NCBI GenBank assembly: GCA_032718475.1
Contig: JAUCBJ010008839.1
Span: forward strand, 1-64,000
DNA length: 64,000 nucleotides
Direction of reading: 5' to 3'
From: Nemertoderma westbladi
Lineage: Eukaryota; Animalia; Xenacoelomorpha
The number at the start of each line of letters is the position of its first letter. Position 1 is the stretch's first letter. Made by a program: the position numbers and the translations under genes. The notes below the pieces were generated by a model, which did not search any database, had not been told where the DNA came from, and saw only the letters and a list, made by a program, of their open reading frames with translations. Positions 4,021 through 63,416 of this stretch are shown here, piece after piece.

Positions 4021-4139
4021 GACTATGTATACCGTTGAATGTCTACTGCTGTATTACAGTCTGAGTAAGTCTAGTAACTCAGTATTACCTGCTAGTCTAG
4101 TAATTAATTACCGGTACTGCTACTCAGTATAGCGTGATA

Positions 4140-9606: not shown

Positions 9607-9963
9607 GGTGACTACAAAACAAAGACCCAAATAATAAAGACCTGTGCAAAACAGATGTGTTAACTTTCGTTTATTGTTTTGGTTCCCCAAAACGCCTCTG
9701 TAACCTGCTCCTTTACTAAGTTGCTCCTTTAAATGGCAATGTGACCTAACGTCCTATGGCAATGGGACATAACGCTGTTTGGGACGTAACGCGACTTTAC
9801 CTCTTTGTTTTGTACGGGCCCCAAAGAATAGGTGCCATTGCATTTAAAGGAGAAGGTCAGTAAAGGAACAGGTTACAGAAGCGTGTTGGGGAAACAAAAA
9901 CAATAAACGAAAGTTAACACATGTTACAATATTATGCAGGTCTTTATTATTTGGGTCTTTGGT
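9607..9963. mobile_element. Palindromic MITE, family A (long TIRs)
   Basis: aaagacccaaataataaagacctg...gttaactttcgtttattgttttggttcccc...tgtaacctgctcctttact is mirrored by its reverse complement at 9860-9960. Same family as 60697-61115. Confidence 0.8.
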
Positions 9964-32027: not shown

Positions 32028-32805
32028 AGTAGGTGACACGTTCGTGGGCCCTTCGCGCAGCACGGGGTAGGTGACACGTTCGTGGGGTCTTCGCGCAGCA
32101 CGAGGTTGGTGACACGTTCGTGGGGCCTTCGTGAAGCACGAGGTACTACTAGGATCGGCATGCTGCATTGCAGCTGCATTTTTAAGAATGCTGTGCCGGC
32201 TTGTCAACAAAATTGCACCGCCACAACTCCCTATCACCCATGACATTTGCTAGATCATCCGCATCTTCAAGGCCAGTGTCCTTTAAGAGGCGTCTCAAGA
32301 AAGTCATGGGCTGTCCACCATGCTTATTCACTCCATGAGGCTGCCAAAGTACAAGATTATGCACTGGCTGGTCCTCACGGCGAAAGCAATGTCCTGCAAA
32401 GCGGAGTCGATTTTGTTCTAGTGTCAAGCTTGGGGGAACCAATGAGACACCTCCAATGTTATATAGTGTCTGGTTGGAGATGTGTGCATTGTACTTGACA
32501 CAATGTACCCGGCGTAGCATTCTTGTGAATGTGCCATCCAGAGATTTGGTGTCCTCAGCAGTTAGAGCCCAGCATGGACTCCCGTAGAGGAGTACTGGAA
32601 CTACTGCTGCTCTAAATAATCGGACCTTAAGTTTCCGATTAATTCTAGGTGACTTCCAAATCCTGGAAAGCCTATTCAAGGCTGCCCATGCCTTTCCCTT
32701 ACGTATTCGAAGGTCCTCACGAGGTACGAGGTAGGTGACACGTTCGTGGGGTCTTCGTGAAGCACGAGGTAGGTGACACGTTCGTGGGGCCTTCGCGCAG
32801 CACGA
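32028..32805. repeat. 38-bp tandem repeat interrupted by an RTE insertion
   Basis: gtaggtgacacgttcgtggg(g/c)(c/t)cttcgcgcagcacga: 3 units at 32028-32146 and 2 units at ~32729-32805. Confidence 0.85.
32144..32720 (-). mobile_element. RTE-clade LINE 3' fragment
   Basis: ORF 32182-32679 (KLKVRLFRAAVVPVLLYGSPCW, RLRFAGHCFRR, DRELWR) preceded by IRKGKAWAAL; short (GTA)n tail; cacgaggtac on both flanks. Confidence 0.88.
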
Positions 32806-33364
32806 TGTCTAGCTGAGCCGTTGGGTAGCAATAGAGTTAGTGGACTTTTTCAATCCCCATAGCAGCCGGCGGTTGATGTGTGTCCTTATTATAATTTCTA
32901 AACTTTTGATAGACTACATGTGTACCAAGTTTGGTTCCATTTCATCAATGACAGAACAGGAAATACGTGGTATTATACGTGGTATTGATTGATGATTACT
33001 GGTATTGAACTGCTATTGGGCCTCCAATAACTGTTTGCTTTATATGTACAATGTTACCTTTAAATAGAAATGATAACACATTATTATGGTGTTGCGTACG
33101 AGTAGTGATATAAATAGTGTTGAATGATATATAAATATATCAGAGAAAGAGAGAAGATAAAATCATATCTATAAAGGGTGAACCCCTTTACTTGTACTAC
33201 CACTGTCACGAGTGTCACCCCCTCATCCCTTCAAAAATATAACTAGACAAGCCAATTCATAGAATTAATTGTTTACTCACACACAAAGGGCGTTGTTGTT
33301 TGTGTATAAAGTACAATGGTGAACAGGTATTGTATTCGAGAAAATTATAAACCAGCCATACAAA

Positions 33365-34804
33365 ATGCTATTAAGAGAAGCTATTGAATTAGTATTGATG
33401 TCTTTACAGCATTTATCTGCAGTCACGTGCATTGTAGAAAATTATAAAACGGAGATGATCACGAAAATATGCAAGAACAATCAATTAATATTAACGTTAA
33501 AAGTTTCCAATATTATTATCTCGCTAAATATAATGTCTATCCTTTTGTTTGTATTCGGTGCCGACCACCCGAATAAAACGCACTTCTCTTTGAACAAGGA
33601 CGAGGCCGGGAATAAATACCGGGCGAAGTTTAGCGAGCGCCCGTTCGCTGCGGGCGCAATGCGGTACGCGTTCACGGGAGTCTACAGCGGGGCTGGGATA
33701 CCGAAAAACGGAGAGCAATGTGTCGTTAAAGTCTACAAACAGCGCGCGAATAATAGAGACATTAGAAACTGTCTCCCGGACGTGGCGGCGAGTAGAACCG
33801 CTGCTTCGTACGCAGAACGGTTCATGGAAGTGTGCGGAACGCGGTTCCCAGCCCATTCAGTAGAGTTTGTGGTCCCGTTAATCGCGCAGATGGATAAAAT
33901 ATCGCGATTTGAAGTTCTCGGGACTATCCCGATCTACACAAACGATCTCGTATCCGCGATGGATTTCGTTACCATCGAGCCCTTTATCGGAGACCGTTAC
34001 CAAAGATTCAGCGACAACGGATGTTACGAAGCTCACGGTTGCGAGTTTCTAACGGCCTTCTCTCATTGGACGTTGGTGATAAGTGATAACGAGTGCCTTG
34101 TGTGCGACCTACAGGGAGTCCGTAAGGAGGGCAGATACGTGTTGACCGACCCCGCGATACATTCAGCTGAACAACGTTTTGGGTTAACCGACTTCGGTCT
34201 GGAAGGAATCGACCGTTACATGGAGTCCCACAGATGCAATGAGTTCTGTCGCGCGTTGGGTCTAAGTGAACGCTGTTCAGAACAATCAGTCGGTGAGGAA
34301 CTGCCATTCAGCGTGGAACAATCAGTCGGCGAGGAACTGTCAGTCAGTGTGAGACAATCAGTCGGCGAGGAACTGTCAGTCAGCGTGGAACAATCAGACG
34401 GTGAGGAACTGTCAGTCAGTGAGGAACTGTCAGTCAGCGTGGAACAATCAGACGGCGAGGAGCTGTCAGTTAGTGAGGAACTGTCAGTCAGCGTGGAACA
34501 ATCAGTCGGTGAAGAATTGTCAGTCATCTTCGAACAATCAATCGAATCAGTCGGTGAGGAACAATCAGTAAGTTCCAATCCCCATGTCAGCAACTACGCC
34601 AATAAATACGTTGAATCCCAAACGAAACTAATTGGTAATATTGATCAGAAACGTAAGACTAATAATAATTACGCAGATCTATTCGTTAAAACTCAAACAA
34701 AACCAAAAGTCAAACGTCACCACAAACTTAAAACGTTAAAAACATTATCCAAGGTGTTACAACATGTATTGGCTGTATATGATGCGATAGGAGCCATCGT
34801 ATAA
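33365..34804 (+). CDS. Alpha-kinase (eEF2K/MHCK-type atypical kinase) with acidic repeat tail; more likely start is ATG 33533
   Basis: PFAAGAMRYAF, CVVKVYK, IEPFIG.YQRF..N, AFSHWT, LVCDLQGV, YVLTDPAIHS, FGLTDFGLEGI and the zinc motif HRCNEFC..LGL; uninterrupted single ORF. Confidence 0.92.
   Translation: MLLREAIELVLMSLQHLSAVTCIVENYKTEMITKICKNNQLILTLKVSNIIISLNIMSILLFVFGADHPNKTHFSLNKDEAGNKYRAKFSERPFAAGAMRYAFTGVYSGAGIPKNGEQCVVKVYKQRANNRDIRNCLPDVAASRTAASYAERFMEVCGTRFPAHSVEFVVPLIAQMDKISRFEVLGTIPIYTNDLVSAMDFVTIEPFIGDRYQRFSDNGCYEAHGCEFLTAFSHWTLVISDNECLVCDLQGVRKEGRYVLTDPAIHSAEQRFGLTDFGLEGIDRYMESHRCNEFCRALGLSERCSEQSVGEELPFSVEQSVGEELSVSVRQSVGEELSVSVEQSDGEELSVSEELSVSVEQSDGEELSVSEELSVSVEQSVGEELSVIFEQSIESVGEEQSVSSNPHVSNYANKYVESQTKLIGNIDQKRKTNNNYADLFVKTQTKPKVKRHHKLKTLKTLSKVLQHVLAVYDAIGAIV
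34275..34570 (+). repeat. Coding 39/21-bp repeats (SVEQSVGEELSV) in the alpha-kinase tail
   Basis: gaacaatcagtcggtgaggaactgtcagtcagc repeated ~7 times in frame. Confidence 0.85.
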
Positions 34805-36891: not shown

Positions 36892-38929
<2,038 letters not shown>

Positions 38930-39202
38930 AAAGTTAGAATCTACTGTCCATTCTTTGTTTTTATCGTTCTTTGAACTCCTGATGAGGTTGAGGAGATAAC
39001 ATAGTGACTCCACGATTGGAGGTTCTTTAGGTGTGGAGCGATATGTTGTCGATAGACTGCATAGAGTATAAACCTTTCTTTCTGGAATGTTAGCCACGTG
39101 CAGCACAAAGTGCGTACCGTCACAATCGGGAAATATAACATAACACATGGACTCCACCTCACAAACAGCAGTGACATAACGAATAATAACGATCCATAAC
39201 GA

Positions 39203-41010
39203 GTTGCAGATCGGATAGGGTTGGGGTCCATGGTGCCGAGGTTGGGGGCCGTGTTGCAGATCGGATAGGGTTGGGGTCCATGGTGCCGAGGATGGAGGCC
39301 GTGTTGCAGATCGGATAGGGTTGGGGTCCATGGTACCGAGGATGGAGGCCGTGTTGCAGATCGGATAGGGTTGTTGGGTCCATGGTTCCGAGGATGGAGG
39401 CCGTGTTGCAGATCGGATAGGGTTGGGTCCATGGTGCCGAGGATGGAGGCCGTGTTGCAGATCGGATAGGGTTGGGGTCCATGGTACTGAGGATGGAGGC
39501 CGTGTTGCAGATCGGATAGGGTTGGGGTTCATGGTGCCGAGGATGGAGGCCGTGTTGCAGATCGGATAGGGTTGTTGGGTCCATGGTTCCGAGGATGGAG
39601 GCCGTGTTGCAGATCGGATAGGGTTGTGGTCCATGGTGCCGAGGATGGAGGCCGTGTTGCAGATCGGATAGGGTTGTGGTCCATGGTGCCGAGGATGGAG
39701 GCCGTGTTGCAGATCGGATAGGGTTGTGGTCCATGGTGCCGAGGATGGAGGCCGTCTTGGTGATTGGATAGGGTTGGGGTCCATGGTGCCAAGGATGGAG
39801 GCCGTGTTGCAGATCGGATAGGGTTGTTGGGTCCATGGTTCCGAGGATGGAGGCCGTGTTGCAGATCGGATAGGGTTGTGGTCCATGGTGCCAAGGATGG
39901 AGGCCGTGTTGCAGATCGGATAGGGTTGTTGGGTCCATGGTTCCGAGGATGGAGGCCGTGTTGCAGATCGGATAGGGTTGTGGTCCATGGTGCCGAGGAT
40001 GGAGGCCGTGTTGCAGATCGGATAGGGTTGTGGTCCATGGTGCCAAGGATGGAGGCCGTGTTGCAGATCGGATAGGGTTGTTGGGTCCATGGTTCCGAGG
40101 ATGGAGGCCGTGTTGCAGATCGGATAGGGTTGTGGTCCATGGTGCCAAGGATGGAGGCCGTGTTCCAGATCGGATAGGGTTGGGGTCCATGGTGCCGAGG
40201 ATGGAGGCCGTGTTGCCGATCGGATAGGGTTGTGGTCCATGGTGCCAAGGATGGAGGCCGTGTTGCAGATCGGATAGGGTTGGGGTCCATGGTGCCGAGG
40301 ATGGAGGCCGTGTTGCAGATCGGATAGTGTTGGGGTCCATTGTGCCGAGGATGGAGTCCGTGTAGCCGATCGGATAGGGTTGGGGTCCATGGTGCCGAGG
40401 ATGGAGGCCGTGTTGCAGATCGGATAGTGTTGGGGTCCATTGTGACGAGGATGGAGACCGTGTAGCCGATCGGATCGGGTTGGGGTCCATGGTGCCGAGG
40501 ATGGAGGCCGTGTTACAGATCGGATAGGGTTGGGGTCCATGGTGCCGAGGATGGAGGCCGTGTTGCAGATCGGATAGTGTTGGGGTCCATTGTGCCGAGG
40601 ATGGAGTCCGTGTAGCCGATCGGATAGGGTTGGGGTCCATGGTGCCGAGGATGGAGGCCGTGTTGCAGATCGGATAGTGTTGGGGTCCATTGTGACGAGG
40701 ATGGAGACCGTGTAGCCGATCGGATCGGGTTGGGGTCCATGGTGCCGAGGATGGAGGCCGTGTTACAGATCGGATAGGGTTGGGGTCCATGGTGCCGAGG
40801 ATGGAGGCCGTGTTGCAGATCGGATAGGGTTGGGGTCCATGGTGCCGAGGATGGAGGCCGTGTAGCCGATCGGATAGGGTTGGGGTCCATGGTGCCGAGG
40901 ATGGAGGCCGTGTTGCAGATCGGATAGGGTTGGGGTCCATGGTGCCGAGGATGGAGGCCGTGTTGCCGATCGGATAGGGTTGCGGTCCATGTACCGAGGA
41001 TGGAGGCCGT
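39203..41010. repeat. 50-bp minisatellite (~36 units)
   Basis: gtgttgcagatcggatagggttggggtccatggtgccgaggatggaggcc, with 52-bp variants and a 250-bp higher-order duplication. Confidence 0.97.
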
Positions 41011-42397
41011 GGATATTACTTTCACGAACGCTGAGAACCTTTTAAACCTCGAGATACTGGTAGTAATGATACTGCAGATTATTGTGGATGATCGCGAACC
41101 GCGATGTGTTTAGCAGTTTTCAGAGGGGCCCAACAATGCATCATAGGGATGTGTGACCATCCATATATACCGGTATGGAAGCGTAAGGGTGTATGCACAG
41201 TATGTAGGCGTACGGTTCCAATACATCGTATTGAAACATTTCATTAAAACGTAAAACAGCAATTAGTGTTTCTACTAAATGTTCATGCGAAATTAAATGG
41301 TTTCCAAAAACTTTGGCGTGGTTCTAATTTGACACGTGCACGTTAAGCACAATATTAACGGGTTTTATAGAAGGCCTCCTCAGACTAACAGCAGGCTTCA
41401 GTCGACGCCCATACCCGCTACCTATTCCAATCGAATTACGTCAACTTTGATGACATTGACGCGCCGAGACACAATAATTAGCGCCATTTATAGGCATTCT
41501 TGACTTCTTGGTAGCTGTTATAAAGTAGCGTTAACAACTATCTACATTGAATATATAGTAATGGAGATATATGAGTATCTTTTAGAGAACCTGTATATGA
41601 GAAATGGATAATATTGAAATATTAAAACCGTTACTGCGACTGCGTCATATTTTTATTGTAATTTTCGTTGCAAGAATTCAGCAATGGGTTCGAACTGGTG
41701 AGTGGTGACCCCCAAGATGGAATTCTGGCGCTGCGCTGGCGCCTCACAATGGCGACAGGAAATGACAGTTTGGCGGCCATGAAGACGTAAAGTGCGGACA
41801 TTCAAGATATCAGGTAATACTTTCAGGACTACCTTTTATATGATTCGAAATATGATTCGAAATAATATTCATTTCCGCATTTGCTTAGCTGTGCCCAACG
41901 ATAACTTCATTAATATGAAATCACTCATTCATCCAAAATACCATTCATGTTTTTATGGCATCAGTAATTTAATGCGGAACACCGCGCAAAAAAGGATAAG
42001 ACAATAAAAAGTAGTCAATAAAGTATGATTTAGGCCTACATGAGTTACCTTAGTTTAATGAGTTCGGGACTAAGGCAATGTATTTCGCAATCAAGATTCA
42101 CGAAATTGTTGTCGACGAGTTATTTGAGAAGATAAAAACTTACATCTGAATCTTTAATAACTCTTGAAAGTTTATGAATAATCACCACTGGGTGTAAACA
42201 TCTAATAAAATACTGTAGGTACAACAAAGTGCTAGAATTTTTTGAGCTTGTCTCGAAACTAAACTCTTGGTAGATAGGCCTACAAGTGCTGCAGTTAAAC
42301 AAAGGGTTGGTTTTACATAAGATATTACTTGTATTATACGCAGCTAGTTTTTCAATTAGACCGTACATTTTTATTTCCAACATTTAAAATAAATAAA

Positions 42398-43575
42398 CGC
42401 CACTAATTGAATGATTTCACACCAAAAAAAATTATTTAGCACCAAATATATCTTTTTGTAGCACCAATTTACATCCCCCAATTTTGAATATCTCTCTCAC
42501 CAAAAACAATTAGTCATCCCCCAAAAACAATTAGTCATCCCCCAAAAACAATTAGTCATCCCCCAAAAACAATTATTCTTTCCTCCCCCAAAAACAATTA
42601 TTCATCACCCCAAAAACAATTATTCAATCTCCCTAAAATAATTATTTGTCAACCAAAAATAATTCTTCCAGCACCAAATATTTTATGGAAAATTTAATTA
42701 TACAAATATTTTCAATATTTATTTCCATAAATCAAACAAAATGTTTGATCATATTCCTACCAATGATTCTCGGGTGAGTACAAAACACAGACCCAATTAT
42801 GAAGACCTGCATAATCTTGTAACATGTTAACTTTTGTTTATTATTTTGGTTCCCCCAACACGCCTCTGTAACCTGCTTCTTTACAAACCTGCTCCTTTAA
42901 ATGGCAATGGGACCTAAACGCTCTTTGGGACCTAACGTTCTTGGGTCCCAATGCGAGATTAGGACATGTACAGAAACAGAACGGCAGTATCCCAACCAAG
43001 TCTTGGTTGGGTCTTTGTTTTGTACTCACCCGACGATCGAAAATATGAATTTATTTTGGGGGGAAATTTATTTATTTTAGGGGAAAATGTATTTATTTTG
43101 GGGGAAAATGTATTTATTTTGGGAAAATTTTTATTTATTTTGGGAAAATTTGTTTTTATTTTGGGAAAATTTGTATTTAATTTGGGATAATTGTATTTAT
43201 TTTGGGAAACTTTGTATTTATTTTGGGAAAATTTGTATTTATTTTGGGAAAATTTGTATTTATTTTGGGAAACTTTGTATTTATTTTGGGAAAATTTGTA
43301 TTTATTTTGGGAAAATTTGTATTTATTTTGGGAAAATTTGTATTTATTTTGGGGGTTTTGTCATTTATTATTTTGGTGTGAATAATTGGTTTTGGGGAGC
43401 ATTTATTTATTTTGGTGTTGTATAATTGTTCTTGATGTTTGAATAATTTTATTTGGGGTGACTTTATTTTATTTGGTGTTGAATAATTTTTTTGGGATCA
43501 CATTATTTAAATTGGTATAATATAATTTTTTGGTGAAATTTTCATCGATTTTGGTATGACTTTAATTGGTAGCCA
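42398..43575. mobile_element. Foldback-like element with tandem-repeat arms
   Basis: Left arm has ~21-bp ccccaaaaacaattagtcat repeats; right arm has oppositely oriented 21-bp ttgtatttattttgggaaaat repeats. Confidence 0.65.
42770..43033. mobile_element. MITE related to family A, nested in the foldback centre
   Basis: TIRs tcgggtgagtacaaaacacagaccca / tgggtctttgttttgtactcacccga; interior matches family A. Confidence 0.75.
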
Positions 43576-48149: not shown

Positions 48150-51100
48150 AGCTGTTGTTGACGTGGACGATAGCACTGCCATAGACACAGCTCTATTGCG
48201 GACGTGGAATATTGCACTGCCATAGACACGGCTCTATTGTGGACGTAGAATATTGCACTGCCATAGACACAGCTCTATTGCGGACGTGGAATATTGCACT
48301 GCCATAGACACGGCTCTATTGTGGACGTAGAATATTGCACTGCCATAGACACAGCTCTATTGCGGACGTGGAATAAGCACTGCCATAGACACAGCTCTAT
48401 TGTGGACGTAGAATATTGCACTGCCATAGACACGGCTCTATTGTGGACGTAGAATATTGCACTGCCATAGAGACAGCTCAATTGTGGACGTAGAATATTG
48501 CACTGCCATAGACACAGCTCTATTGCGGACGTGGAATATTGCACTGCCATAGACACGGCTCTATTGTGGACGTAGAATATTGCACTGCCATAGAGACAGC
48601 TCAATTGTGGACGTAGAATATTGCACTGCCATAGACACAGCTCTATTGTGGACGTAGAATATTGCACTGCCATAGACACGGCTCTATTGTGGACGTAGAA
48701 CATTACACTACCATGGACACGGCTCTATTGTGGACGTAGAATATTGCACTGCCATAGACACGGCTCTATTGTGGACGTAGAATATTGCACTGCCATAGAC
48801 ACGGCTCATTGTGGACGTAGAATATTGCACTGCCATAGACACAGCTCTATTGTGGATGTAGGATATTGCACTGCCATAGACACAGCTCTATTGTGGACGT
48901 GGAAGATTGCACTGCCATAGACACAGCTCTATTGCGGACGTAGAATATTGCACTGCCATAGACACAGCTCTATTGTGGACGTAGAATATTGCACCGCCAT
49001 AGACACGGCTCTATTGTGGACGTAGAATATTGATCTGCCATAGACACAGCTCTATTGTGGACGTGGAATATTGCACTGCCATAGACACGGCTCTATTGTG
49101 GACGTAGAATATTGCACTGCCATAGACACGGCTCTATTATGGACGTGGAATATTGCACTGCCATAGACACGGCTCTATTGTGGACGTGGAATATTGCACT
49201 GCCATAGACACGGCTCTATTGTGGACGTAGAATATTGCACTGCCATAGACACAGCTCTATTGTGGACGTGGAAGATTGCACTGCCATAGACACAGCTCTA
49301 TTGCGGACGTAGAATATTGCACTGTCATAGACACAGCTCTATTGTGGACGTAGGATATTGCACTGCCATAGACACGGCTCTATTGTGGACGTAGAATATT
49401 GCTCTGCCATAGACACAGCTCTATTGTGGACGTGGAATATTGCACTGCCATAAACACGGCTCTATTGTGGACGTAGAATATTGCACTGCCATAGACACGG
49501 CTCTATTGTGGACGTAGAATATTGCACTGCCATAGACACAGCTCTATTGTGGACGTGGAATATTGCACTGCCATAAACTCGGCTCTATTGTGGACGTAGA
49601 ATATTGCACTGCCATAGACACGTTTCTATTGTGGACGTAGAATATTGCACTGCCATAGACACAGCTCTATTGCGGACGTAGAATATTGCACTGCCATAGA
49701 CACAGCTCTATTGTGGACGTAGGATATTGCACTGCCATAGACACGGCTCTATTGTGGACGTAGAATATTGCACTGCCATAGACACAGCTCTATTGTGGAC
49801 GTAGAATATTGCACTGCCATAGACACGGCTCTATTGTGGACGTAGAATGTTGCACTGCCATAGACACAGCTCTATTGTGGAAGTTGAAGGTTGCAGTGCC
49901 ATGACACAACTCTTATTGTGGACGTAGGATATTGCACTGCCATAGACACGGCTCTATTGTGGACGTAGAATATTGCACTGCCATAGACACGTTTCTATTG
50001 TGGACGTAGAATATTGCACTGCCATAGACACAGCTCTATTGTGGACGTAGGATATTGCACTGCCATAGACACGGCTCTATTGTGGACGTAGAATATTGCA
50101 CTGCCATAGACACGGCTCTATTGTGGACGTAGAATATTGCACTGCCATAGACACAGCTCTATTGTGGACGTAGAATATTGCACTGCCATAGACACTGCTC
50201 TATTGTGAACGTAGGATATTGCACTGCCATAGACACGGCTATATTGTGGACGTAGAATATTGCACTGCCATAGACACAGCTCTATTGTGGACGTAGAATA
50301 TTGCACTGCCATAGACATAGCTCTATTGTGGACGTAGGATATTGCACTGCCATAGACACGGCTCTATTGTGGACGTAGAATATTGCACTGCCATAGACAC
50401 AGCTCTATTGTGGAAGTTGAAGGTTGCAGTGCCATGACACAGCTCTATTGTGGACGTAGAATATTGTACTGCCATAGACACAGCTCAATTATGGACGTAT
50501 AAAATTGCACTGCCATAGACACGGCTCTATTGTGGAAGTTGAAGTGCCATGACACAGCTCTATTGTGGACGAAGAATATTGTACTGCCATAGACACAGCT
50601 CTATTGTGGACGTAGGATATTGCACCGCCATAGACACAGCTCTATTGTGGACGTGGAAGATTGCACTGCCATAGACACGGCTCTATTGTGGACGTGGAAG
50701 ATTGCACTGCCATAGACACAGCTCTATTGTGACGTGGAATATTGCACTGCCATAGACACAGCTCTATTGTGGACGTAGAATATTGCACTGCCATAGACAC
50801 AGCTCTATTGTGGACGTAGGATATTGCACCGCCATAGACACGGCTCTATTGTGGACGTAGAATATTGCACTGCCATAGACACAGCTCAATTGTGGACGTA
50901 TAATATTGCACTGCCATAGACACAACTCTATTGTGGACGTGGAAGATTGCACTGCCATAGACACGGCTCTATTGTGGACGTGGAAGATTGCACTGCCATA
51001 GACACAGCTCTATTGTGACGTGGAATATTGCACTGCCATAGACACAGCTCTATTGTGGACGTAGAATATTGCACTGCCATAGACACAGCTCTATTGTGGA

Positions 51101-54100
51101 CGTAGGATATTGCACCGCCATAGACACGGCTCTATTGTGGACGTAGAATATTGCACTGCCATAGACACAGCTCTATTGTGGACGTAGAATATTGCACTGC
51201 CATAGACACAGCTCTATTGTGGACGTAGGATATTGCACTGCCATAGACACCGCTCCATTGTGGACGTGGAATATTGCACTGCCATAAACTCGGCTCCATT
51301 GTGGACGTGGAATATTGCACTGCCATAAACTCGGCTCTATTGTGACGTGGAATATTGCACTGCCATAGACACAGCTCTATTGTGACGTGGAAGATTGCAC
51401 TGCCATAAACACGGCTACTTTGTGGACGTAGAATATTGCACTGCCATAGATACAGCTCTATTGTGGACGTAGAATATTGCACAGTCATAGACACAACTCT
51501 ATTGTGGACGTAGGATATTGCACTGCCATAGACACGGCTCTATTGTGGACGTAGAATATTGCACTGCCATAGACACGGCTCTATTGTGGGCGTAGAATAT
51601 TGCACTGCCATAGACACATCTCTATTGTGGAAATATAATATTGCACTGCCATAGAGACAGCTCTATTGTTGACGTAGAATATTGCACTGCCATAGACACA
51701 GCTCTACAGTGGACGTAGAAGATTACACTGCCATAGACACAGCTCTATTGTGGACGTAGAATATTGCACTGCCATAGACACAGCTCTATTGTGGACGTAG
51801 AATATTGCACTGCCATAGACACGGCTCTATTGTGGACGTAGAATATTGCACTGCCATAGACACAGCTCTATTGTGGAAGTTGAAGGTTGCAGTGCCATGA
51901 CACAGCTCTATTGTGGACGTAGAATATTGCGCTGCCATAGACACAGCTCTATTGTGGACGTAGGATATTGCACTGCCATAGACACGGCTCTATTGTGGAC
52001 GTAGAATATTGCACTGCCATAGACACGGCTCTATTGTGGACGTAGAATATTGCACTGCCATAGACACAGCTCTATTGTGGACGTAGAATATTGCACTGCC
52101 ATAGACACTGCTCTATTCTGAACGTAGGATATTGCACTGCCATAGACACGGCTATATTGTGGACGTAGAATATTGCACTGCCATAGACACAGCTCTATTG
52201 TGGACGTAGAATATTGCACTGCCATAGACATAGCTCTATTGTGGACGTAGGATATTGCACTGCCATAGACACGGCTCTATTGTGGACGTAGAATATTGCA
52301 CTGCAATAGACACAGCTCTATTGTGGAAGTTGAAGGTTGCAGTGCCATGACACAGCTCTATTGTGGACGTAGAATATTGTACTGCCATAGAAACAGCTCA
52401 ATTATGGACGTATAATATTGCACTGCCATAGACACGGCTCTATTGTGGAAGTTGAAGTGCCATGACACAGCTCTATTGTGGACGAAGAATATTGTACTGC
52501 CATAGGCACAGCTCAATTGTGGACGTATAATATTGCACTGCCATAGACACAGCTCTATTGTGGACGTGGAAGATTGCACTGCCATAGACACGGCTCTATT
52601 GTGGACGTGGAAGATTGCACTGCCATAGACACAGCTCTATTGTGACGTGGAATATTGCACTGCCATAGACACAGCTCTATTGTGACGTGGAATATTGCAC
52701 TGCCATAAACACGGCTCCTTTGTGGACGTAGAATATTGCACTGCCATAGACACATCTCTATTGTGGAAATATAATATTGCACTGCCATAGAGACAGCTCT
52801 ATTGTTGACGTAGAATATTGCACTGCCATAGACACAGCTCTACAGTGGACGTAGAATATTACACTGCCATAGACACAGCTCTATTGTGGACGTAGAATAT
52901 TACACTGCCATTGACACAGCTCTATTGTGGACGTAGAATATTGCACTGCCATAGACACAGGTCTATTGTGGACGTGGAATATTACACTGCCATAGACACA
53001 GCTCTACAGTGGACGTAGAAGATTACACTGCCATAGACACAGCTCTATTGTGGACGTAGAATATTGCACTGCCATAGACACAGCTCTATTGTGGACGTAG
53101 AATATTGCACTGCCATAGACACAGCTCTATTGTGGACGTAGAATATTGAACTGCCATAGAGACAGCTCAATTGTGGACGTCGAATATTGCACTGCCATAG
53201 ACACAGCTCTACAGTGGACGTAGAAGATTACACTGCCATAGACACAGCTCTATTGTGGACGTAAAATATTGCACTGCTATAGAGACAGCTCAATTGTGGA
53301 CGTAGAATATTGCACTGTCATAGACACAGCTCTATTGTGGACGTAGAATATTGCACTGCCATAGACACGGCTCTATTGTGGATGTAGTATATTGCACTGC
53401 CATAGACACAGCTCTATTGTGGACGTAGAATATTACACTGCCATAGAGACAGCTCAATTGTGGACGTAGAATATTGCACTCCCATAGACACAGATATATT
53501 ATGGACTTGGGATATTGCACTGCCATAGACACGGCTCTATTGTGGACGTAGAATATTGCACTGCCATAGAGACAGCTCAATTGTGGACGTAGAATATTGC
53601 ACTGCCATAGACACAGCTCTACAGTGGACGTAGAATATTGCACTGCCATAGACACAGCTCAATTGTGGACGTAGAATATTGCACTGCCATAGACACAGCT
53701 CTACAGTGGACGTAGAATATTGCACTGCCATAGACACAGCTCTATTGTGGACGTAAAATATTGCACTGCCATAGAGACAGCTCAATTGTGGACGTAGAAT
53801 ATTGCACTGCCATAGACACAGCTCTATTGTGGACGTAGAATATTACACTGCCATAGAGACAGCTCAATTGTGGACGTAGAATATTGCACTGCCATAGACA
53901 CAGCTATATTATGGACTTGGAACATTGCACTGCCATAGACACGGCTCTATTGTGGAAGTTGAAAGTTGCAGTGCCATGACACAGCTCTATTGTGGACGTA
54001 GAATATTGCACTGCCATAGAGACAGCTCAATTGTGGACGTAGAATATTGCACTGCCATAGAGACAGCTCAATTGTGGACGTAGAATATTGCACTGCCATA

Positions 54101-54314
54101 GACACAGCTCTATTGTGGACGTAGAATATTGCACTGCCATAGAGACAGCTCAATTGTGGACGTAGAATATTGCACTGCCATAGACACGGCTCTATTGTGG
54201 ATGTAGAATATTGCACTGCCATAGACACGACTCTATTGTGGACGTAGAATATTGCACTGCCATAGACGCAGCTCTATATTGTGGTTGTGGACATGGAAGA
54301 TAGCATGTCCACAA
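48150..54314. repeat. 41-bp satellite (~150 units)
   Basis: ctctattgtggacgtagaatattgcactgccatagacacag; a block of shared variants recurs at a 1913-bp offset (50118 vs 52031). Confidence 0.98.
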
Positions 54315-55457: not shown

Positions 55458-56120
55458 CTAATCGGACTCCATATTATCTGAAACATCAGTATCTTCGTCG
55501 TCTTTACTAAGAACTGATTTATCCAGTTTATCTCTCAACGTAGTGTACGCTTTATGCACCGGCACGGAATGCTCCTCGCCAGGACGAACAACTTCCAGGA
55601 TCGTAACGAGAATATCTACTGGCATCTTATAGGCCACGAAGTACAGCAAGCGAACCACGTGTTTGATAACGTTCTCCTGGGAAGACGAACTTCGTAGCAG
55701 AAACTCGTCGAACACACCTTGACAGAACGCGGGTCTGGCGAACTCGTCCGGTATCGAGCACAAAGAGGAAACGAGTCCGTTTATCAGACTATCGTTCTGC
55801 CAGATATCCAGTTCGCAGTCGGCTAGTAACGGCAACAAACGCGGGATGTTGTGTCTCCCGTAGTTTCCGTTACAGACTTTATCTACGTATTGGAGGGTTA
55901 TTAGCACGGCTAGTTTGTTGCATTTAATCCCGGCGACCACGGTCTTTGGGAGGGGCTCGGGTGTGGGCAGGGAGCCCGGCTCATCCTCGGGGTGGTCCCG
56001 AGCTAACTCCTCGATTATACGGGAGTCCGACAGTCGGATCTGGTCGTCCACCATCACGGACTGGATGGACGGGACGAGTTTACTGATGGTGTCGGAGGAT
56101 AGACGCGGCTCCTTAAACAC
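55458..56120 (-). CDS. NELFB: Negative elongation factor B (COBRA1), exon 2
   Basis: Acceptor ttattacccag| then VFKEPRL...SVMVDDQI...VFDEFLL...QENVIKHVVRLL; stop at 55458. Confidence 0.93.
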   Translation of the reverse strand: MFKEPRLSSDTISKLVPSIQSVMVDDQIRLSDSRIIEELARDHPEDEPGSLPTPEPLPKTVVAGIKCNKLAVLITLQYVDKVCNGNYGRHNIPRLLPLLADCELDIWQNDSLINGLVSSLCSIPDEFARPAFCQGVFDEFLLRSSSSQENVIKHVVRLLYFVAYKMPVDILVTILEVVRPGEEHSVPVHKAYTTLRDKLDKSVLSKDDEDTDVSDNMESD

Positions 56121-56772
56121 CTGGGTAATAAAGATAATAAAGTAAAACTAATTTAAACTAAAACATGTAAATAAAATTTATCGAAACTTAAAGCCTCGGT
56201 TATATTATTATTAGGAACTTGTGTGCGCATCGATTATACCATACTTCCGGGATCCGTAGTAGACTTCCGGGATGCGTCATGGACCAATTTCTAGCAACTT
56301 CCGGGTCAAACCCGCTAATTCTGGTTACCAGTAATCTACTTAACATAGCGAAGTGAAAAAAAAACAAATTATTATAAAATAAAACAACTCGAAAAAGTTT
56401 AAAGTAAAAGACAGACAACAGAACCGTTAAAAAAATATAATTAAATTGAGATAAGTTGTTGAGTTAGACAATATATAATAATAGATACCTAGGAACCTGA
56501 GCTGAAGATTAATAATAATTAATTAATCAATGATGGGGAACTGGACGAGAGTAACATCTCGTCTTAGTGTTAAATAATCAATTAAGGGAAAGAAGCGGGT
56601 TACAGTGGCAAGTTATTCTAACCAAAACAATAAACAAATATCAATAGAACAGGTTACAGTTACAGTATATTTTTAAGAGTTTTCAATTTTCCCCTTGAGA
56701 ATATCTGCTTAAATCACACCATACATCTAAAATAAAACAATACCGCGGTATGTAAATATCACACGACAATAC

Positions 56773-57846
56773 CTGGGAATCTATAATATCCCACGCCGAT
56801 AAGGCGAGGTTAGCTAATCGGAGTAGCAAAGCGATCTCTCGGTTATCGCGGGGTAATCCTTCACTAACAACCACCACCTGCTCCAACAGGTTAACTATAC
56901 TACGAGATATCGTGTATATCGCGAAGGGGTCGCACAATATCATCGCGATATCCCCGAGTACCTCCTGCCCTTTACGCAACCCGTCGAGGTACTTCTCCAA
57001 CTGAATCCCCCGTTTAGTGTCTATCATTCGCTCCCGGATACACGCATCCAGACACCACGCGAACTTATGACACAAATCCACCTCGCAAATCGCGTTGTTA
57101 TTCGCATCGTGCAGCGCCATTAACAACTCCGCTCGCAATGTGCAATAATGGACATTGCGTGTTCGCAGGAACAATGTGCGAAGAAACTGCAACGTAACAT
57201 CGTACAGTTTAACCTGCTGGCCTATCATTTCTAATTGTTTAGCTATTAGTTCGCTTTGCCTGCGAGTTTTAGGGGAAACAGAATATAAGGAATTCTTCGT
57301 GGATAAACTGAACATGGATTCCTCTTTGTGCGAAACATATTCCGTTAGTAAAGGGGATAATTCGTCGCCGAATAAACTCTGATTCTGTCGCCAAATATGT
57401 CGTTTAACTTCGATGGGACAATCTCGATACAATTCTTTATCGGTAACAAGTTTTTTTATTGTTCCGGGAGGGATTGTATCCACACGTTGTAGTAAATGCA
57501 TTACTATCGGTCGCAGCACAGGCACTTTTATTACTGGGTAGGACTTCGCTAAGAGTTCTAGCAACTGTTTCTGCCCGGATTTCTGGTCCGGTGGTTCCGT
57601 TTTAGAGGCCAAGGCGTCGATTCGCTCCATCAGACGGGTTCGCAACTCGAGGAATACCGACTGGTGGAACTGCAGCCGTCGGACGTTGTGCAGGTCGAGT
57701 AGCGGCAAGGCCGGTTGCAACGAAGGGAGGAGAATTCCGTTCTCCGTTTGGAACTCCTCGATCGCTCGCAGGGGGTCGCTGCAGTTAGTCAACGTGTCCC
57801 TGAGATACTCGCTGCCTGGGATACCGATCTCTTCGAGTCCCGACAT
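56773..57846 (-). CDS. NELFB: Negative elongation factor B (COBRA1), exon 1
   Basis: LRDTLTNCSDPLRAIEEFQTENGILLPSLQPALPLLDLH, LQFLRTLFLRTRNVHYCTLRAELLMALHD, HKFAWCLDACIRE; donor CAG|GTATT after IIDSQ; spliced length 578 aa. Confidence 0.95.
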
Positions 57847-59845
57847 TGTACTTGTAGGCCTAACAACGGTTGCGTTTTGCGTACGGTCGGCACGGTAGCA
57901 GGAAAACAGGCAGTAAAATGAAAAGCTACAAAGGTGACCAAGTGCAAGTACTACTGCTGGCAGCCCAGCAGCATACTAGTCAGCTAGTAGGAGTAGCTGA
58001 GTAGGCCTACCGTAGAACCGTGCCGTTCGTTATCGGTCACTGGTAGCCGGTAGCGTAAACTAAAAAATGGAGGGAATGATTAAAATATTAATAAAAAAAA
58101 TAAATAAAAAAATATATAATAAAAATTAAAAATAAAACGATGGAATGCAGTTTCGTGTACCAGTAAATTTTTGCATAGGCAACCAATGACTGAATGATGA
58201 ATCGAACTAGAGCCTTTCTGCCTTTAGAGTTAAATTCAAATATGCTCAATCCAGCAATCCAACAAAAGTTATTGGGAAGTTTGGTTTGGTGTGTTAGAGG
58301 TGTAAAGGCATGACTCATGGTACAGCAGCAGCTTGGAGTCAGGCAGTACTGGTGCAGGCTGCAGGGCGGCCCTTTCATCAGTTCATTGCAAAACCCAGAA
58401 TCCCCATCACTTTTCATTTTGAGAAAAACGCAAGACTTTGAACCTTCTGCGATTGATGATCAAACTATGAAATCAACCCAAAATTTCTCAGCAATTTTTG
58501 ACGTATGGCCTTTTCACACTTTAGCTACGCCTACGATATGCAATACCGGTACCGGTTGCCGGTAAATGATTATTACTTTTACCGCATTGCGATGCTGTGC
58601 GATGTGAGTACGGTTCTCGCTACCCCGGGATCTGATATTTCTCTCAGCATTCTGCGGAGCAGGCGAAGCCTTAAATAATAATAAAAGTTAAAAACTCTTT
58701 TATTAATCTATAACATATCAAATGAAATAAAAATAAGAATATTACCCGCAGGAACACCCGTGCAATAATTAATAATCAATAATTAATAAAATGGTTGAGT
58801 CAAACAATTCAGTAACGAAGGTTGGTAATAGCGCGATACGGGTCGGCAGGGCCCGCGGTATTAGGTGGGTATGGGTCGGTACAACTCTGTATTATATATA
58901 TCGCTGATTCTCTACTCCATGCATGTCGTTATGGCCCTGTATGCATCGGTAGCTAATGCCCAGAAACCCCAGATGATACCAAAATAAACTCCATAGATCT
59001 GTATAGTGATCTTATTTGAATTTACCTCTCTTTTATGAAAGCTCTACTGTAGTCCGATTAATTCAATGTTTACCTTCGCAAAAACTCACCTACGCGAAAC
59101 TGATTCCATCGGCTACGCGTAGCCTACACCGACGCGGGAAAGTCAAACCCCAAAGACAGGTTGACAACATGTAATATGTTGCTTAATAAATGTTATAATG
59201 TGCTACATAACAACACTTGTACGGAATATAAGATTCCTTTAAAATATAAATTGTGGAAAAATTATGTAAGTCGATAAATATTTTAATTTTTATCTCACGA
59301 AAAGCGGCGTTACATTATTTATTATAGATGATTCGTAACTTGCATTACGGATGGATTTATCATGTAAATTAAATAAATAATTTTTAATAGTTTGAAAATG
59401 ACAATTCAAATGTATCAGTTCTGAGATATACTGTTGCATGTAGGCCTGAAATAACATTAAAAAAATTATATTCATTCAGCCAGATAGATCTGGTTGAATG
59501 ATAGATCATAAATCATAAATAATATAACACACTTCTTGGGGCCTTCGCCCACACGGATGGGGGTAAACGCTACACCTACTTTTAGACTGGTTAGTAAAGA
59601 AGCAGGTTACAGAGGCGGGTTGAAGGAACCAAAACAATAAATGAGATCTGGTACTATTTCAGAAAACCAAATTTAATTGAGAATAAACACCTTGAGAATC
59701 AACACTCAGATGCATAGGCCTACAGGCTTATAAATACTGTTCATAGGCGTATGTACGCGTATATAGGTGTATATGTAGGTGTAGGCATTTACCCATTACC
59801 CCCATATGTGGGTGTAGGTGTAGTAATTTACCCATTAACCCCACA

Positions 59846-60696: not shown

Positions 60697-61115
60697 GGGT
60701 GACTACTGTACATAACAAAGACCAAAGACCCAAATAATGTATAAATTGAATTGAATAAATTGAATAATGAATAAATAAATGTATAATATTGTAACATGTG
60801 TTAACCTTCGTTTATTGTTTTGGTTCCCCAACACGCATCTGTAACCTGCTCCTTTACTAACCTGATCCTTTAAATGGCAATGGGACCTAACCCTCTATGG
60901 CAATGGGAACTAACGGTCTTTGGGACCTAATACGACTTTAGCTCTTTGTTTTTCGCCCCAAAGGGCGTTAGGTCCCATTGCCATTAAAAGGACCAGCTAA
61001 GTAAAGGAGCAGGTTACAGAGGCGTGTTGGGGGGAACCAAAACAATAAACGAAAGTTAACAATATTATACAGGTCTTTATTATTTGGGTCTTTGGTCTTT
61101 GCTTTATAGTCACCC
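60697..61115. mobile_element. Palindromic MITE, family A, near full length
   Basis: gggtgacta...caaagaccaaagacccaaataat / attatttgggtctttggtctttg...tagtcaccc with long arms. Confidence 0.85.
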
Positions 61116-62190
61116 CGATCAATATACCGAATGTTACATTGATACCATTCAGAGATTCAGTATCAATACAGTGCTGTCCTGGCACAAAGTTTCACATTCT
61201 ACTTCATCAGGCTTCAGGTTAAGTTCAGGTGCTTCTAGTAAATAACTCCTCGCCAATTCGAAAATTGACAGTGTGGTTTAGTGCATAGCATATTTCCCAT
61301 AATTTTGACAACTACTTGGTTCTCAATTTAAAATCTCAATTTATAAAAATATTAATTTGTAATTGGATATTCTTAAATATTGGCAAATAATGATTTTTTT
61401 TAAAACTGCCTCAATTTCGGACTGGGCCAGTTCAATACACATATAATAATAACAATAAGAATCATTATGCTTTAGAAAAAAAATACTTTCGAAAAAAAAT
61501 AAAAAAAATATTGAAAAATACTTTCAAAATGAACCATGCTATCCAACACGCTTATTCTCTCTGAGGACGCCAAAGAACTTGTTTGTGCACTGGCTGAATA
61601 TAATGGTTGCTGCTGGTCCTTAAAGTAATGTGGAGGCCGGGAACGGTTCCGCTATATGGTATAATCGTGATTACGGGTAGGTGTGAATTAATTAACTTCA
61701 CAGTGTACAACGCACGCTATTTCTTTTCGTCATGCGTCAATCTGTGTCCATTTCTGTTTACACAGATCACCTACAGTAGTTTTTAAGAATCGCCACAATC
61801 CATTCCACCCGCATGCGATATTAATATTCACACTTCAGCTAACCTTCTTAGAGGTTATTAGAGGCAGGTCGCAATCAAAAGCCGTGATTTAAACCAATTA
61901 AAGTATTGGGATTACAGGTAGATAGTTAGCATTATCTTAACCGGCCTGCAAAATGCTAATACAGTAATAAGGTTAACTGGCCAGGTTAATCTTATCTTAG
62001 GTGGTGTATATAGTTGTATCTAATCTGATGGCTTTAGTGTTTACGGTAGCGGTGCAAGTGGTATGATAAATCGGTATTGGGCTACAGTATATTTCATAAT
62101 TCCTGTAATAATTAAAGGATTATTACAGGATTAGAACGAATGATTTATTGTAGTGTAGAGGGAGTTATTGCGTATTTCTTACTTCAACTT

Positions 62191-62558
62191 TTATTATAAG
62201 AAGGGATCTAGGGGTCTTAACCTCGAATGATAAGTTTATTTTACCGAAAATAACTTATCTTTTATTGGCGCAATTGTACGACTAATCCCATCACATGCGT
62301 ACTTTTTAACCGGGTAGTGTACAAATTTAGGAATCGCGTAATTTTTTCTTGAAATTAATATCTCATATCTCTCCAAACCACGTACGCGTTTCGACCTTAC
62401 TGGGTCTCATCAGCGTGGTGTCGGATTCGAACCTGGGACCTCGAGGCGGAAGCCGAGACTACAACCACTAGGCCACCTAGGTTAAGACCCCTAGATCCCT
62501 TCTTATAATAAATGTATAATAACAAACACCTCGAAAAATACAGCTTGCCAACACATTG
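62191..62558 (-). mobile_element. Non-autonomous element: tRNA-like head plus hammerhead ribozyme within 34-bp inverted repeats
   Basis: IR 62190-62223 / 62479-62512; direct repeat ttacttcaactt at 62179 and 62559; A box TGGCCTAGTGG and B box GGTTCGAATCC on the minus strand. Confidence 0.75.
62377..62419 (-). ncRNA. Minimal type I hammerhead ribozyme
   Basis: ACCACG-CUGAUGA-GACC(CAGUAA)GGUC-GAAA-CGCG-UA-CGUGGU: intact core, 6-bp stem I, 4-bp stem II, palindromic ACGCGU stem III, GUA cleavage triplet. Confidence 0.85.
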
Positions 62559-62884
62559 TTACTTCAACTTAACTTTTCTTACTGAAACTTCACTTTACTG
62601 TAAAATTTTGTGTGGTTGAAATTTTAATGAGTAATGTTTATTTTTAACAAAAACAATCGTTTATTTCAACTGACATCCACTATAATAAAGGCTTGTATTT
62701 TATTTACATATCAATTTAATTAAAAAAAAACTTTTAATTTTTAATTACTTCTAGTACGTTTATCTAACTCTAAAAAGGACAACAATTACAGTAGCTGTTT
62801 GTTTATAATGGGTAACTTTAAAACGAAAATAAGCCTGAAAGTTGAAATTGTTTCGAAACCTTTGTCTTGGAAAGAAAGTCAGAA

Positions 62885-63416
62885 CGGAACCTTAAGATTC
62901 TATTATTTATCCGTATGGCAGCAGTAGTTCCAGTACTCCTCTATGGGAGTCCATGCTGGGCTCTAACTGCAGAGGATACCAAATCTCTGGGTGGCATTTC
63001 ACAAAAATGCTGCGCCGGGTTCATTGTGTCAAGTACAATGAACACATCTCCAATCACACTCTATACAGTACAACATTGGATGTGTTCCATTAATCTCCCC
63101 TAGCTTGACACTTGAACGACGGAACCACCTCCGCTTTGCAGGACATTGCTTTCGCCGTGAGGACCAGCCAGTGCATAATCTTGTACTTTGGCAGCCTTAT
63201 GGAGTAACAAGCATGGTGGACAGCCCATGACTTTCTTGAGACGCATCTTAAAGGACACTGGCCTTGAAGATGCGGATGATCTAGCAAATGTCATTGGTAA
63301 TAGGGAGATGTGGCGGCGCAATTTTGTCGTCAATCTGGGACAGCATTCTTAATATATATGTAATATAAATAATGCAGTTGCGATGCAGAATGCCGATCGT
63401 AGTAGTAGTAGTAGTA
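62885..63416 (+). mobile_element. RTE LINE 3' fragment, decayed copy of the 32144-32720 family
   Basis: AAVVPVLLYGSPCWALTAEDTKSL shared; frameshifted; ends gccgatc(gta)n. Confidence 0.88.

What the first reader, a model, noticed from the sequence alone, without database searches (positions are those of the whole stretch)
62179..62570. tRNA-headed hammerhead ribozyme mini-element inside perfect inverted repeats
Seen: on the minus strand a tRNA-like head (A box 62475-62465, B box 62433-62423) runs directly into a complete minimal hammerhead (62419-62377), with predicted cleavage between 62383 and 62382. The unit lies between perfect 34-bp inverted repeats, one extended by a ~46-nt tail, and the whole is bracketed by a 12-bp direct repeat. 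Known: minimal hammerheads with palindromic stem III typify Penelope-like element pLTRs and animal retrozymes, Schistosoma Sm-alpha couples Pol III boxes to a hammerhead, and Penelope-like insertions often carry partial inverted terminal copies. Inference: a Pol III-driven, self-processing non-autonomous element, possibly mobilised by a Penelope-like RT, and a candidate new SINE/retrozyme family.
Basis: partly seen in the sequence, partly recalled or inferred. Interest (0 to 1): 0.85.

Follow-up and report, generated by a model that had tools for sequence, protein, structure and literature searches.

The report
Penelope-pasted tRNA-headed hammerhead retrozyme copy
This 368-base insertion, absent from another copy of the same chromosome site, is one member of a young, abundant, protein-free animal repeat that puts a tRNA-like promoter motif in front of a predicted self-cutting hammerhead RNA, a layout known from blood flukes, and its mirror-image ends suggest that a Penelope-type retrotransposon enzyme likely copied the RNA into both strands of the cut DNA at once.

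Summary
Public contigs show more. The element is a young, abundant repeat with sharp ends. One contig carries the empty site with a single copy of the 12-bp repeat, so that repeat is a true target duplication and the insertion is polymorphic. One contig closes on itself with a 411-nt period. In it the 'tail' follows the body in direct orientation, so the inverted repeats are not termini. They are the unit's own 3' end, copied a second time backwards during insertion; 12 other listed junctions show inversions at other breakpoints. Inversion plus one-sided tail is the published Penelope signature. Best reading: a non-coding, Sm-alpha-like retrozyme/SINE pasted by a Penelope RT-endonuclease priming on both target strands at two RNA start sites. 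Pol III transcription, self-cleavage and the partner enzyme are untested. Promoter plus hammerhead is published for Schistosoma, and retrozymes as Penelope passengers are proposed in print. This scan already noted what looks like the same 411/412-bp family in this genome and similar elements in others. New variant of a known kind; interest 0.45.

The parts
62179..62190 (+). Left copy of the 12-bp target-site duplication
   Evidence: Identical to 62559-62570; an empty allele holds one copy only (X3 record 17)
62190..62223 (-). 3' end of the long copy (34-nt segment); its end is the proximal 3' boundary of the family and likely one reverse-transcription start
   Evidence: 21 (X2) and 24 (X3) contigs leave the element at 62190 into unrelated flanks (table 7)
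62224..62376 (-). Non-coding AT-rich body; one T4 run at 62250-62247 on the predicted RNA strand
   Evidence: 5, 6 and 8 stops in the three sense frames of 62478-62190, longest open stretch 56 codons
62377..62419 (-). Type I hammerhead motif with minimal palindromic helix III; predicted cut 62383/62382; predicted to fold as a dimer
   Evidence: Sequence; Rfam HH9 E 5.2e-05; two copies co-fold at -31.7 kcal/mol, the energy of the dimeric hammerhead, against -11.7 per monomer
62423..62433 (-). B box of a tRNA-type internal Pol III promoter (predicted)
   Evidence: Matches the recalled consensus; no variant at 1% or more
62465..62475 (-). A box of a tRNA-type internal Pol III promoter (predicted)
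   Evidence: Matches the recalled consensus; 31 nt from the B box
62476..62483 (.). Head-to-head junction of the long copy's 5' end with the inverted short copy; AGGTT also follows 62476 in the uninverted unit (microhomology)
   Evidence: 15 X3 contigs continue behind 62476 with AGGTTCTT...; junction letters
62479..62512 (+). Inverted second copy of the 34-nt segment
   Evidence: Perfect reverse complement of 62190-62223
62513..62563 (+). One-sided AC-rich tail; in the family unit it follows the 34-nt segment directly; its end is the distal 3' boundary and likely the second reverse-transcription start
   Evidence: X4 contig with 411-nt period; 45, 37 and 42 contigs leave the element at 62563; 33 of 51 nt are A or C
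62559..62570 (+). Right copy of the target-site duplication; its first 5 nt equal the family's tail end

Best explanation
This is one recent, polymorphic insertion of an abundant 411-nt non-coding repeat that likely is transcribed by RNA polymerase III from its tRNA-type boxes, is predicted to self-cleave only in pairs, and was likely pasted by a Penelope-type reverse transcriptase-endonuclease acting in trans. Shown: the unit, its abundance, the empty site, the duplication and the inversion. Inferred mechanism: the enzyme made a staggered cut with 3' overhangs and both 3' ends primed cDNA on the element's RNA. The top strand started at the proximal site (62190) and copied body, ribozyme and head, stopping at the head's 5' edge (62476). 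The bottom strand started at the distal site (tail end, about 62563, where the target's 3' end can pair with the RNA) and copied about 80-85 nt. The two cDNAs were joined head to head at a short microhomology and the gaps were filled. This gives the 12-bp duplication, the 34-bp 'inverted repeat' (the stretch copied twice) and the one-sided tail (the stretch between the two starts). The copy runs through the predicted cut site, so its template was uncut or re-ligated RNA. A lone transcript cannot form helix III and would likely stay uncut, which fits a SINE-like route for solo copies. Tandem units would cut in pairs and likely give 411-nt circles, the retrozyme route.
For: Abundance and ends: summed contig depth 4.5e5-6.8e5 at 62360-62403 against 18-37 in the flanks, in three DNA runs of two studies. 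Youth: 649 of 856 (X2) and 1928 of 2297 (X3) contigs are 95% alike or better, and only 4 substitutions and 1 deletion reach 1%. Empty allele: X3 record 17 joins 62178 to 62559. Unit: an X4 contig of 441 nt carries 62190 at positions 2 and 413, with the tail in direct orientation; 4 X3 contigs also show the direct tail. Inversions: 12 other listed junctions, 7 that land in the inverted arm or tail and 5 opposite-strand joints in the body. One (62422 to 62488) has an inverted arm 6 nt longer than ours, so it is no deletion of this layout. Two clusters of 3' ends, near 62190 and near 62563. Literature: inverted 5'-truncated copy plus a 30-40 bp tail at one end is the Penelope signature (PMC8557442). 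Purified PAc cleaves and extends both strands, starts at two sites that delimit the tail, in an AC-rich stretch, and uses uncut RNA (PMC11167929). One X3 contig has an inversion joint at 62382, the first base after the predicted cut; with 12 junctions over about 290 positions this is a weak hint only (about 4% by chance).
Against: No partner enzyme was found: no Penelope RT or GIY-YIG motif in the window's six frames, and no genome was held. PAc starts without homology to the target, whereas here the tail end matches the target over 5 nt, and over 4 more after a one-base gap. The tail is 46-51 nt or more, longer than the published 30-40. A T4 run at 62250-62247 could stop Pol III before the 3' end, and the strand bias in T runs is not significant (P about 0.09). 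The head is no callable tRNA. The 411-nt closure rests on one low-depth contig from a run labelled as another organism, whose RNA status is a guess; it shows head-to-tail order, not a circular RNA. Eight of nine frog retrozyme dimers did not cleave in vitro, and metazoan Penelope hammerheads cleave weakly even as dimers. The direction of the 5 opposite-strand joints is not given by the tool.
Confidence: 0.62

Rival explanations
1. The unit is the pseudo-LTR of a protein-coding Penelope element that has a tRNA-like head, and this locus is a 5'-truncated stump of it, as earlier agents concluded for similar elements in other genomes.
For: Same insertion signature. Retrozymes are related to pLTRs. 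Unchecked notes e1-8796959, e1-9502131, e1-9820579 and e1-9983900 report that arrangement elsewhere. Contig tables are cut, so a path into an ORF could be hidden.
Against: The X4 contig closes after 411 nt with no room for an ORF. No frame stays open through ribozyme and body, unlike PAc, whose ORF starts in stem II. Contigs that leave the tail end disagree after a few letters (agreement 0.45-0.53).
Confidence: 0.13
2. The RNA is mobilised by a LINE (RTE, L2 or CR1 type) and the inversion arose by twin priming, with the tail end as first primer site and 62190 as a chance internal site.
For: The layout (3' piece in sense, 5' piece inverted, target duplication) is also that of L1 twin priming (recalled). 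Microhomology at the tail end. LINE-type RT ORFs and a very abundant LINE-like fragment lie in the window. An unchecked note, e1-10596620, reports a 412-bp array joined to a LINE tail.
Against: The internal site is recurrent, not random (21 and 24 contigs end at 62190). No poly(A) or simple-repeat end. No BLAST similarity between the element and the LINE pieces of the window. The two pieces overlap by 34 nt.
Confidence: 0.15
3. The boxes are a silent relic. Arrays are read through by other promoters, cut and circularised, and this copy stopped at the head by ordinary truncation while copying a circle. Insertion is still by Penelope, but the element is a plain non-LTR retrozyme and no SINE.
For: No RNA evidence for a Pol III start. 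T4 inside the unit. The listed 5' breakpoints are spread along the whole unit.
Against: Both boxes are perfect and invariant in the family, though the family is so young that this says little. This copy and one listed joint (62472) stop at the head's edge. Sm-alpha, of the same layout, appears to be Pol III-transcribed.
Confidence: 0.08
4. A MITE or Helitron-like DNA element with subterminal inverted repeats captured a SINE head and a hammerhead.
For: Perfect 34-bp inverted repeat, asymmetric position, AT-rich site.
Against: The inverted repeat is not part of the family unit; arm lengths and breakpoints differ between copies; the unit occurs head-to-tail.
Confidence: 0.02

Closest known systems
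Sm-alpha / Sj-alpha SINE-like hammerhead retroposons of Schistosoma (PMC6765202 and PMC2770079, passages; Ferbeyre 1998 and Laha 2000 not seen)
   Same: tRNA-related Pol III promoter followed by a type I hammerhead; non-coding; thousands of copies; tandem and dispersed forms.
   Different: No sequence relationship tested. The review says single Sm-alpha copies carry the promoter at the 3' end and cannot propagate; this solo copy has the promoter at its 5' end with the ribozyme uncut. The passages read name no mobilising enzyme and no inversion-plus-tail pattern for Sm-alpha.
Metazoan non-LTR retrozymes (PMC7229834, passages; Li, Clavereau and Pollet 10.64898/2026.07.22.740005, parts 1-3 of 5)
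   Same: Type I hammerhead in a short, low-GC (40%), non-coding unit that occurs head-to-tail; target duplication longer than 4 bp; proposed Penelope passengers.
   Different: Term searches of PMC7229834 found no Pol III or SINE mention in the main text, and the parts of Li et al. that I read name no tRNA head. The published Penelope link rests on co-occurrence and pLTR similarity; here it rests on the insertion signature at a site whose empty allele is known. This locus is a monomer and would not count as 'active' under Li et al.
Endonuclease-bearing Penelope-like elements, e.g. PAc of Anolis (PMC11167929, parts 1-2 of 4; PMC8557442 and PMC4209133, passages)
   Same: Inverted 5'-truncated copy, one-sided tail, AT-rich target, hammerhead with short palindromic helix III, AC-rich 3' region, two 3' boundaries.
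   Different: No ORF; tRNA-type head; tail somewhat longer; microhomology between tail end and target.
tRNA-derived SINEs in general (own knowledge)
   Same: A and B boxes at the 5' end, dispersed high copy number, target duplication, polymorphic insertions.
   Different: No LINE-like or simple-repeat 3' end seen; ribozyme; head-to-tail units; inversions.

Membership tests
Type I hammerhead ribozyme | Conserved core (CUGANGA, GAAA, NUH) with helices I and II | tested here: met
   1 hit in the window, 0 in 100 shuffles
Type I hammerhead ribozyme | Stable helix III as a monomer | tested here: not met
   2 bp with a 2-nt loop; not formed in the fold
Type I hammerhead ribozyme | Palindromic helix III that allows a dimer (metazoan and Penelope type) | tested here: met
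   ACGCGU; co-fold minimum equals the dimeric hammerhead, -31.7 kcal/mol; prediction only
Type I hammerhead ribozyme | Loop 1-loop 2 tertiary contact | tested here: inconclusive
   The HH9 alignment has gaps in the helix I internal loop
Type I hammerhead ribozyme | Stem covariation across copies | tested here: inconclusive
   No variant at 1% or more in 62377-62419
Type I hammerhead ribozyme | Self-cleavage | not testable with these tools
   Needs an in vitro assay; one joint at 62382 is a weak hint
Non-LTR retrozyme | Head-to-tail units, each with a type I hammerhead | tested here: met
   Family level only: one X4 contig with 411-nt period; this locus is a monomer
Non-LTR retrozyme | Short, low GC, no ORF | tested here: met
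   GC 0.40; longest open stretch 56 codons
Non-LTR retrozyme | Target duplication longer than 4 bp | tested here: met
   12 bp, empty allele
Non-LTR retrozyme | Linear and circular monomer RNAs in tissue | not testable with these tools
   Only contigs were on offer
tRNA-derived SINE | A and B boxes at tRNA spacing | tested here: met
   consensus recalled
tRNA-derived SINE | Head traceable to a tRNA | tested here: inconclusive
   No call at default; an undetermined minus-strand call at 62413-62480 appears only at 75% threshold, with two other calls nearby
tRNA-derived SINE | Pol III transcription | not testable with these tools
   No raw RNA reads; T-run strand bias not significant
tRNA-derived SINE | LINE-derived or simple-repeat 3' end | tested here: not met
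   None in the sequence; no similarity to LINE pieces of the window; other LINEs of the genome not tested
Penelope-like element (insertion signature) | Inverted 5'-truncated copy with a tail at one end | tested here: met
   This locus and 12 other listed junctions
Penelope-like element (autonomous) | RT plus GIY-YIG ORF | tested here: not met
   No ORF in the element; no such motif in the window
Penelope-like element (passenger) | Sequence shared with the pLTR of a coding Penelope element in the same genome | not testable with these tools
   No genome held
Sm-alpha / Sj-alpha | Sequence homology to the Schistosoma families | not tested
   No tool gave these sequences; same layout only

The most novel reading that the evidence does not exclude
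A tRNA-headed SINE family whose partner is a Penelope enzyme and not a LINE, with a dimer-only hammerhead that switches between two life cycles: lone transcripts stay uncut and insert as promoter-first solo copies, while tandem transcripts cut in pairs, circularise and seed arrays. This insertion is a genomic record of both target strands priming at the two start sites found in vitro for PAc, on a non-coding template.
Probability: 0.4. Interest if true: 0.7.

Novelty: new variant of a known kind. Interest (0 to 1): 0.45.

Why it matters
SINEs are taught as parasites of LINEs. A tRNA-headed element with a Penelope insertion signature, a known empty site and a very young family would name a second partner and could explain how Sm-alpha-type repeats move. 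It also offers a short non-coding template with two mapped 3' boundaries for the only purified Penelope system, where the origin of inversions and tails is still open. Each ingredient is published separately, and this scan has met the family before, so the gain is in evidence and testability more than in surprise.

Tried and rejected
Whole-genome BLAST for copies and partner: no genome held. Other copies in the window: none. So no sibling sequences could be aligned, and no covariance model was built. No RNA holder listed; this says nothing on expression. T-run strand bias as support for Pol III: 1 T run against 5 A runs, P about 0.09, rejected. Folding z-scores of head and ribozyme alone are unremarkable (-0.5 and -1.2; -2.1 with extended helix I). 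Summed contig depth as copy number: rejected, because overlapping contigs are added up. Penelope protein motifs (recalled) in six frames of the window: 0 hits. MITE/Helitron reading rejected (see rivals). Lunse et al. 2016 is not held; known only through the review. Paper searches for a published tRNA-headed, Penelope-mobilised hammerhead SINE found none by title or abstract start; subscription journals, Repbase and bioRxiv supplements were not visible and may hold one.

Full report
Observation. On the minus strand an A box (62475-62465) and a B box (62433-62423) match the recalled consensus fully and lie 31 nt apart. Three bases later a type I hammerhead begins (62419-62377), with the full core, a 6-bp helix I, a 4-bp helix II and the palindrome ACGCGU in place of helix III. 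The predicted cut is 62383/62382. Rfam HH9 matches at E 5.2e-05 but below its gathering score. A full descriptor gives 1 hit in the window and 0 in 100 shuffles. The 34-bp inverted repeat and the 12-bp direct repeat are perfect. The head is not callable as a tRNA. The window looks like animal DNA: satellites, LINE-type RT frames, a BEL/Pao-type frame and a COBRA1 match.

It is a young, abundant, mobile family. The window has one copy and no genome was held, so I laid public contigs on the locus. Four of eight listed runs were used. In three DNA runs of two studies, summed contig depth rises from 18-37 in the flanks to 4.5e5-6.8e5 at 62360-62403, with edges near 62190 and 62563. The tool warns that this is no copy number. 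Overlapping contigs could inflate it about 30-fold (my estimate), which still leaves several hundred copies or more. 649 of 856 contigs in X2 and 1928 of 2297 in X3 are 95% alike or better. Only four substitutions and one deletion reach 1%, none in the boxes or the ribozyme. X1 may be the source of the window and is not independent support.

The direct repeat is a true target duplication. One 934-nt contig of X3 runs from 61700 to 62178 and goes straight on at 62559 (record 17). It lacks 380 bp, which is the 368-bp element plus one copy of the repeat. X1 bridges the left junction of the filled allele with no differences over 61700-62218. The insertion is therefore polymorphic and likely recent.

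The inverted repeats are a scar of insertion and not the element's termini. A 441-nt contig of X4 carries 62190-62476, then 74 other letters, then the tail and the 34-nt segment in the opposite orientation to the window, and returns to its start with a period of 411 nt. On the RNA strand the unit is head, hammerhead, body, 34-nt segment, tail, spacer, head again. Four X3 contigs show the same direct tail. X4 is labelled as another organism and its RNA status is a guess, so this shows head-to-tail order and no more. In the window the tail and a second copy of the 34-nt segment are turned round and placed in front of the head. Other loci do the same at other breakpoints. Among the joints listed, 7 lead from a shortened body into the inverted arm or tail (six rows of table 5 and one of table 5c), and 5 are opposite-strand joints in the body. 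The tables show only the best-supported rows (15 of 75 and 15 of 22). Contigs leave the element in two clusters: 21 and 24 at 62190, and 45, 37 and 42 at 62563.

Mechanism. An inverted, 5'-truncated copy with a 30-40 bp tail at one end is the described signature of Penelope-like elements (PMC8557442, passages). The purified PAc protein cleaves and extends both target strands, prefers AT-rich DNA, starts at two internal sites that delimit the tail, and uses uncut RNA (PMC11167929, parts 1-2 of 4). The geometry here fits. Both pieces are antisense to the RNA as read inward from the 3' ends of a staggered cut. The long piece starts at 62190 and ends at the head's edge. The short piece starts at the tail end and stops after about 80-85 nt. 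They meet at a 5-nt microhomology. The flanks are 66% and 72% AT. One point differs from PAc: the target's 3' end matches the tail end over 5 nt, and 4 more after a gap, so priming here may have been helped by pairing. All of this is inference from anatomy; no partner gene was seen.

Role of the ribozyme. Helix III cannot form in a monomer, while two copies co-fold into the dimeric hammerhead. Such motifs work as dimers and often weakly (PMC4209133 and PMC7229834, passages; 1 of 9 frog dimers cleaved). This copy spans the cut site, so its template was uncut or re-ligated. One X3 joint falls on 62382, the first base after the predicted cut. That is a single contig and about a 4% coincidence, so it is a hint only. 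Against simple Pol III transcription, a T4 run lies inside the unit, and the T-run strand bias is not significant.

Comparison. Promoter followed by hammerhead is the layout of Schistosoma Sm-alpha, described as apparently Pol III-transcribed (PMC6765202, passages; PMC2770079, passages). Non-LTR retrozymes are proposed as non-autonomous Penelope derivatives (10.64898/2026.07.22.740005, parts 1-3 of 5, supplements not seen). Small-RNA-headed passengers of non-LINE retroelements are also known (PMC10886601, listing and passages). The element works like a retrozyme and meets the sequence-level tests for one. It fails the LINE-tail test of a classical SINE and the ORF test of an autonomous Penelope element. 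Six searches found no paper that joins a tRNA head, a hammerhead and Penelope mobilisation, within a library that lacks most subscription journals and Repbase.

Earlier findings. I derived the 411-nt unit and the empty site before reading that other agents had noted 411/412-bp tRNA-headed hammerhead repeats in this genome, as arrays and as a polymorphic mirror-image insertion, and similar elements in other genomes. A look-up by sequence found nothing, so identity with those families rests on size and description. The notes are unchecked and add no weight. They supplied two rivals: a coding Penelope pLTR and a LINE partner.

Verdict. Real, active and well defined; a new variant of a known kind. 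Confidence in the Penelope-pasted, Pol III-headed retrozyme reading is 0.62. Interest 0.45.

Noticed in passing
Metagenome loci L077, L085, L090, L147; viral locus L191: Complete type I hammerheads lie between two tRNA genes in phage-like tRNA arrays, and the predicted cut falls at the 5' end of the next tRNA: one base before the ARAGORN start of tRNA-His(GTG) in 4 loci (the G-1 position, by recalled tRNA numbering) and exactly at the start of tRNA-Tyr in 1. Worth its own study.
   Followed up: partly
L079, L089, L106, L108, L119, L122, L123, L144, L154-L156, L166, L169; viral L192-L195, L198, L202: Hammerhead cores 5-7 nt behind a tRNA gene, mostly tRNA-Glu(TTC), with a long branched helix III whose base varies in a paired way by eye. 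Of 120 metagenome loci, 30 matches had helix II of 4 bp or more; 23 of these follow a CCA and 20 have a GUH with a helix I of 4 bp or more. The pattern asked for a T-loop upstream, so the link is partly built in. Rfam at gathering score missed the tRNA-adjacent hammerheads in the 9 loci tested.
   Followed up: partly
window 60770-61096; also 9620-9961, 42786-42962, 59589-59644: A second, older fold-back repeat family (76-84% alike) with long internal inverted arms and no hammerhead core; MITE-like.
   Followed up: no
window 62885-63407 and 32144-32637: Broken 3' piece of a LINE-like RT gene, two copies 84% alike; summed contig depth up to 1.9e6, higher than the element's.
   Followed up: no
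window 55461-58459 (minus): COBRA1 (NELF-B) matches in long open frames, 430 codons in one piece, which may be a retrocopy or a gene with few introns.
   Followed up: no
window 1-4053 (minus), 7509-8897, 28826-29935, 33323-34804: A long DUF1759 frame (BEL/Pao-type, name recalled), two LINE-type RT frames and an alpha-kinase frame.
   Followed up: no
window 11481-21851, 23171-27168, 37719-38937, 39203-41011, 48155-54277: Large tandem arrays with 17, 39, 4, 50 and 41-bp units; the 17-bp array has higher-order repeats and strong GC skew.
   Followed up: no
window 62420-62428 with 62372-62376 (minus): The 3' part of the B box region can pair with the bases behind the hammerhead and lengthen helix I, so the tRNA T-arm and the extended ribozyme are predicted to be alternative folds.
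   Followed up: partly
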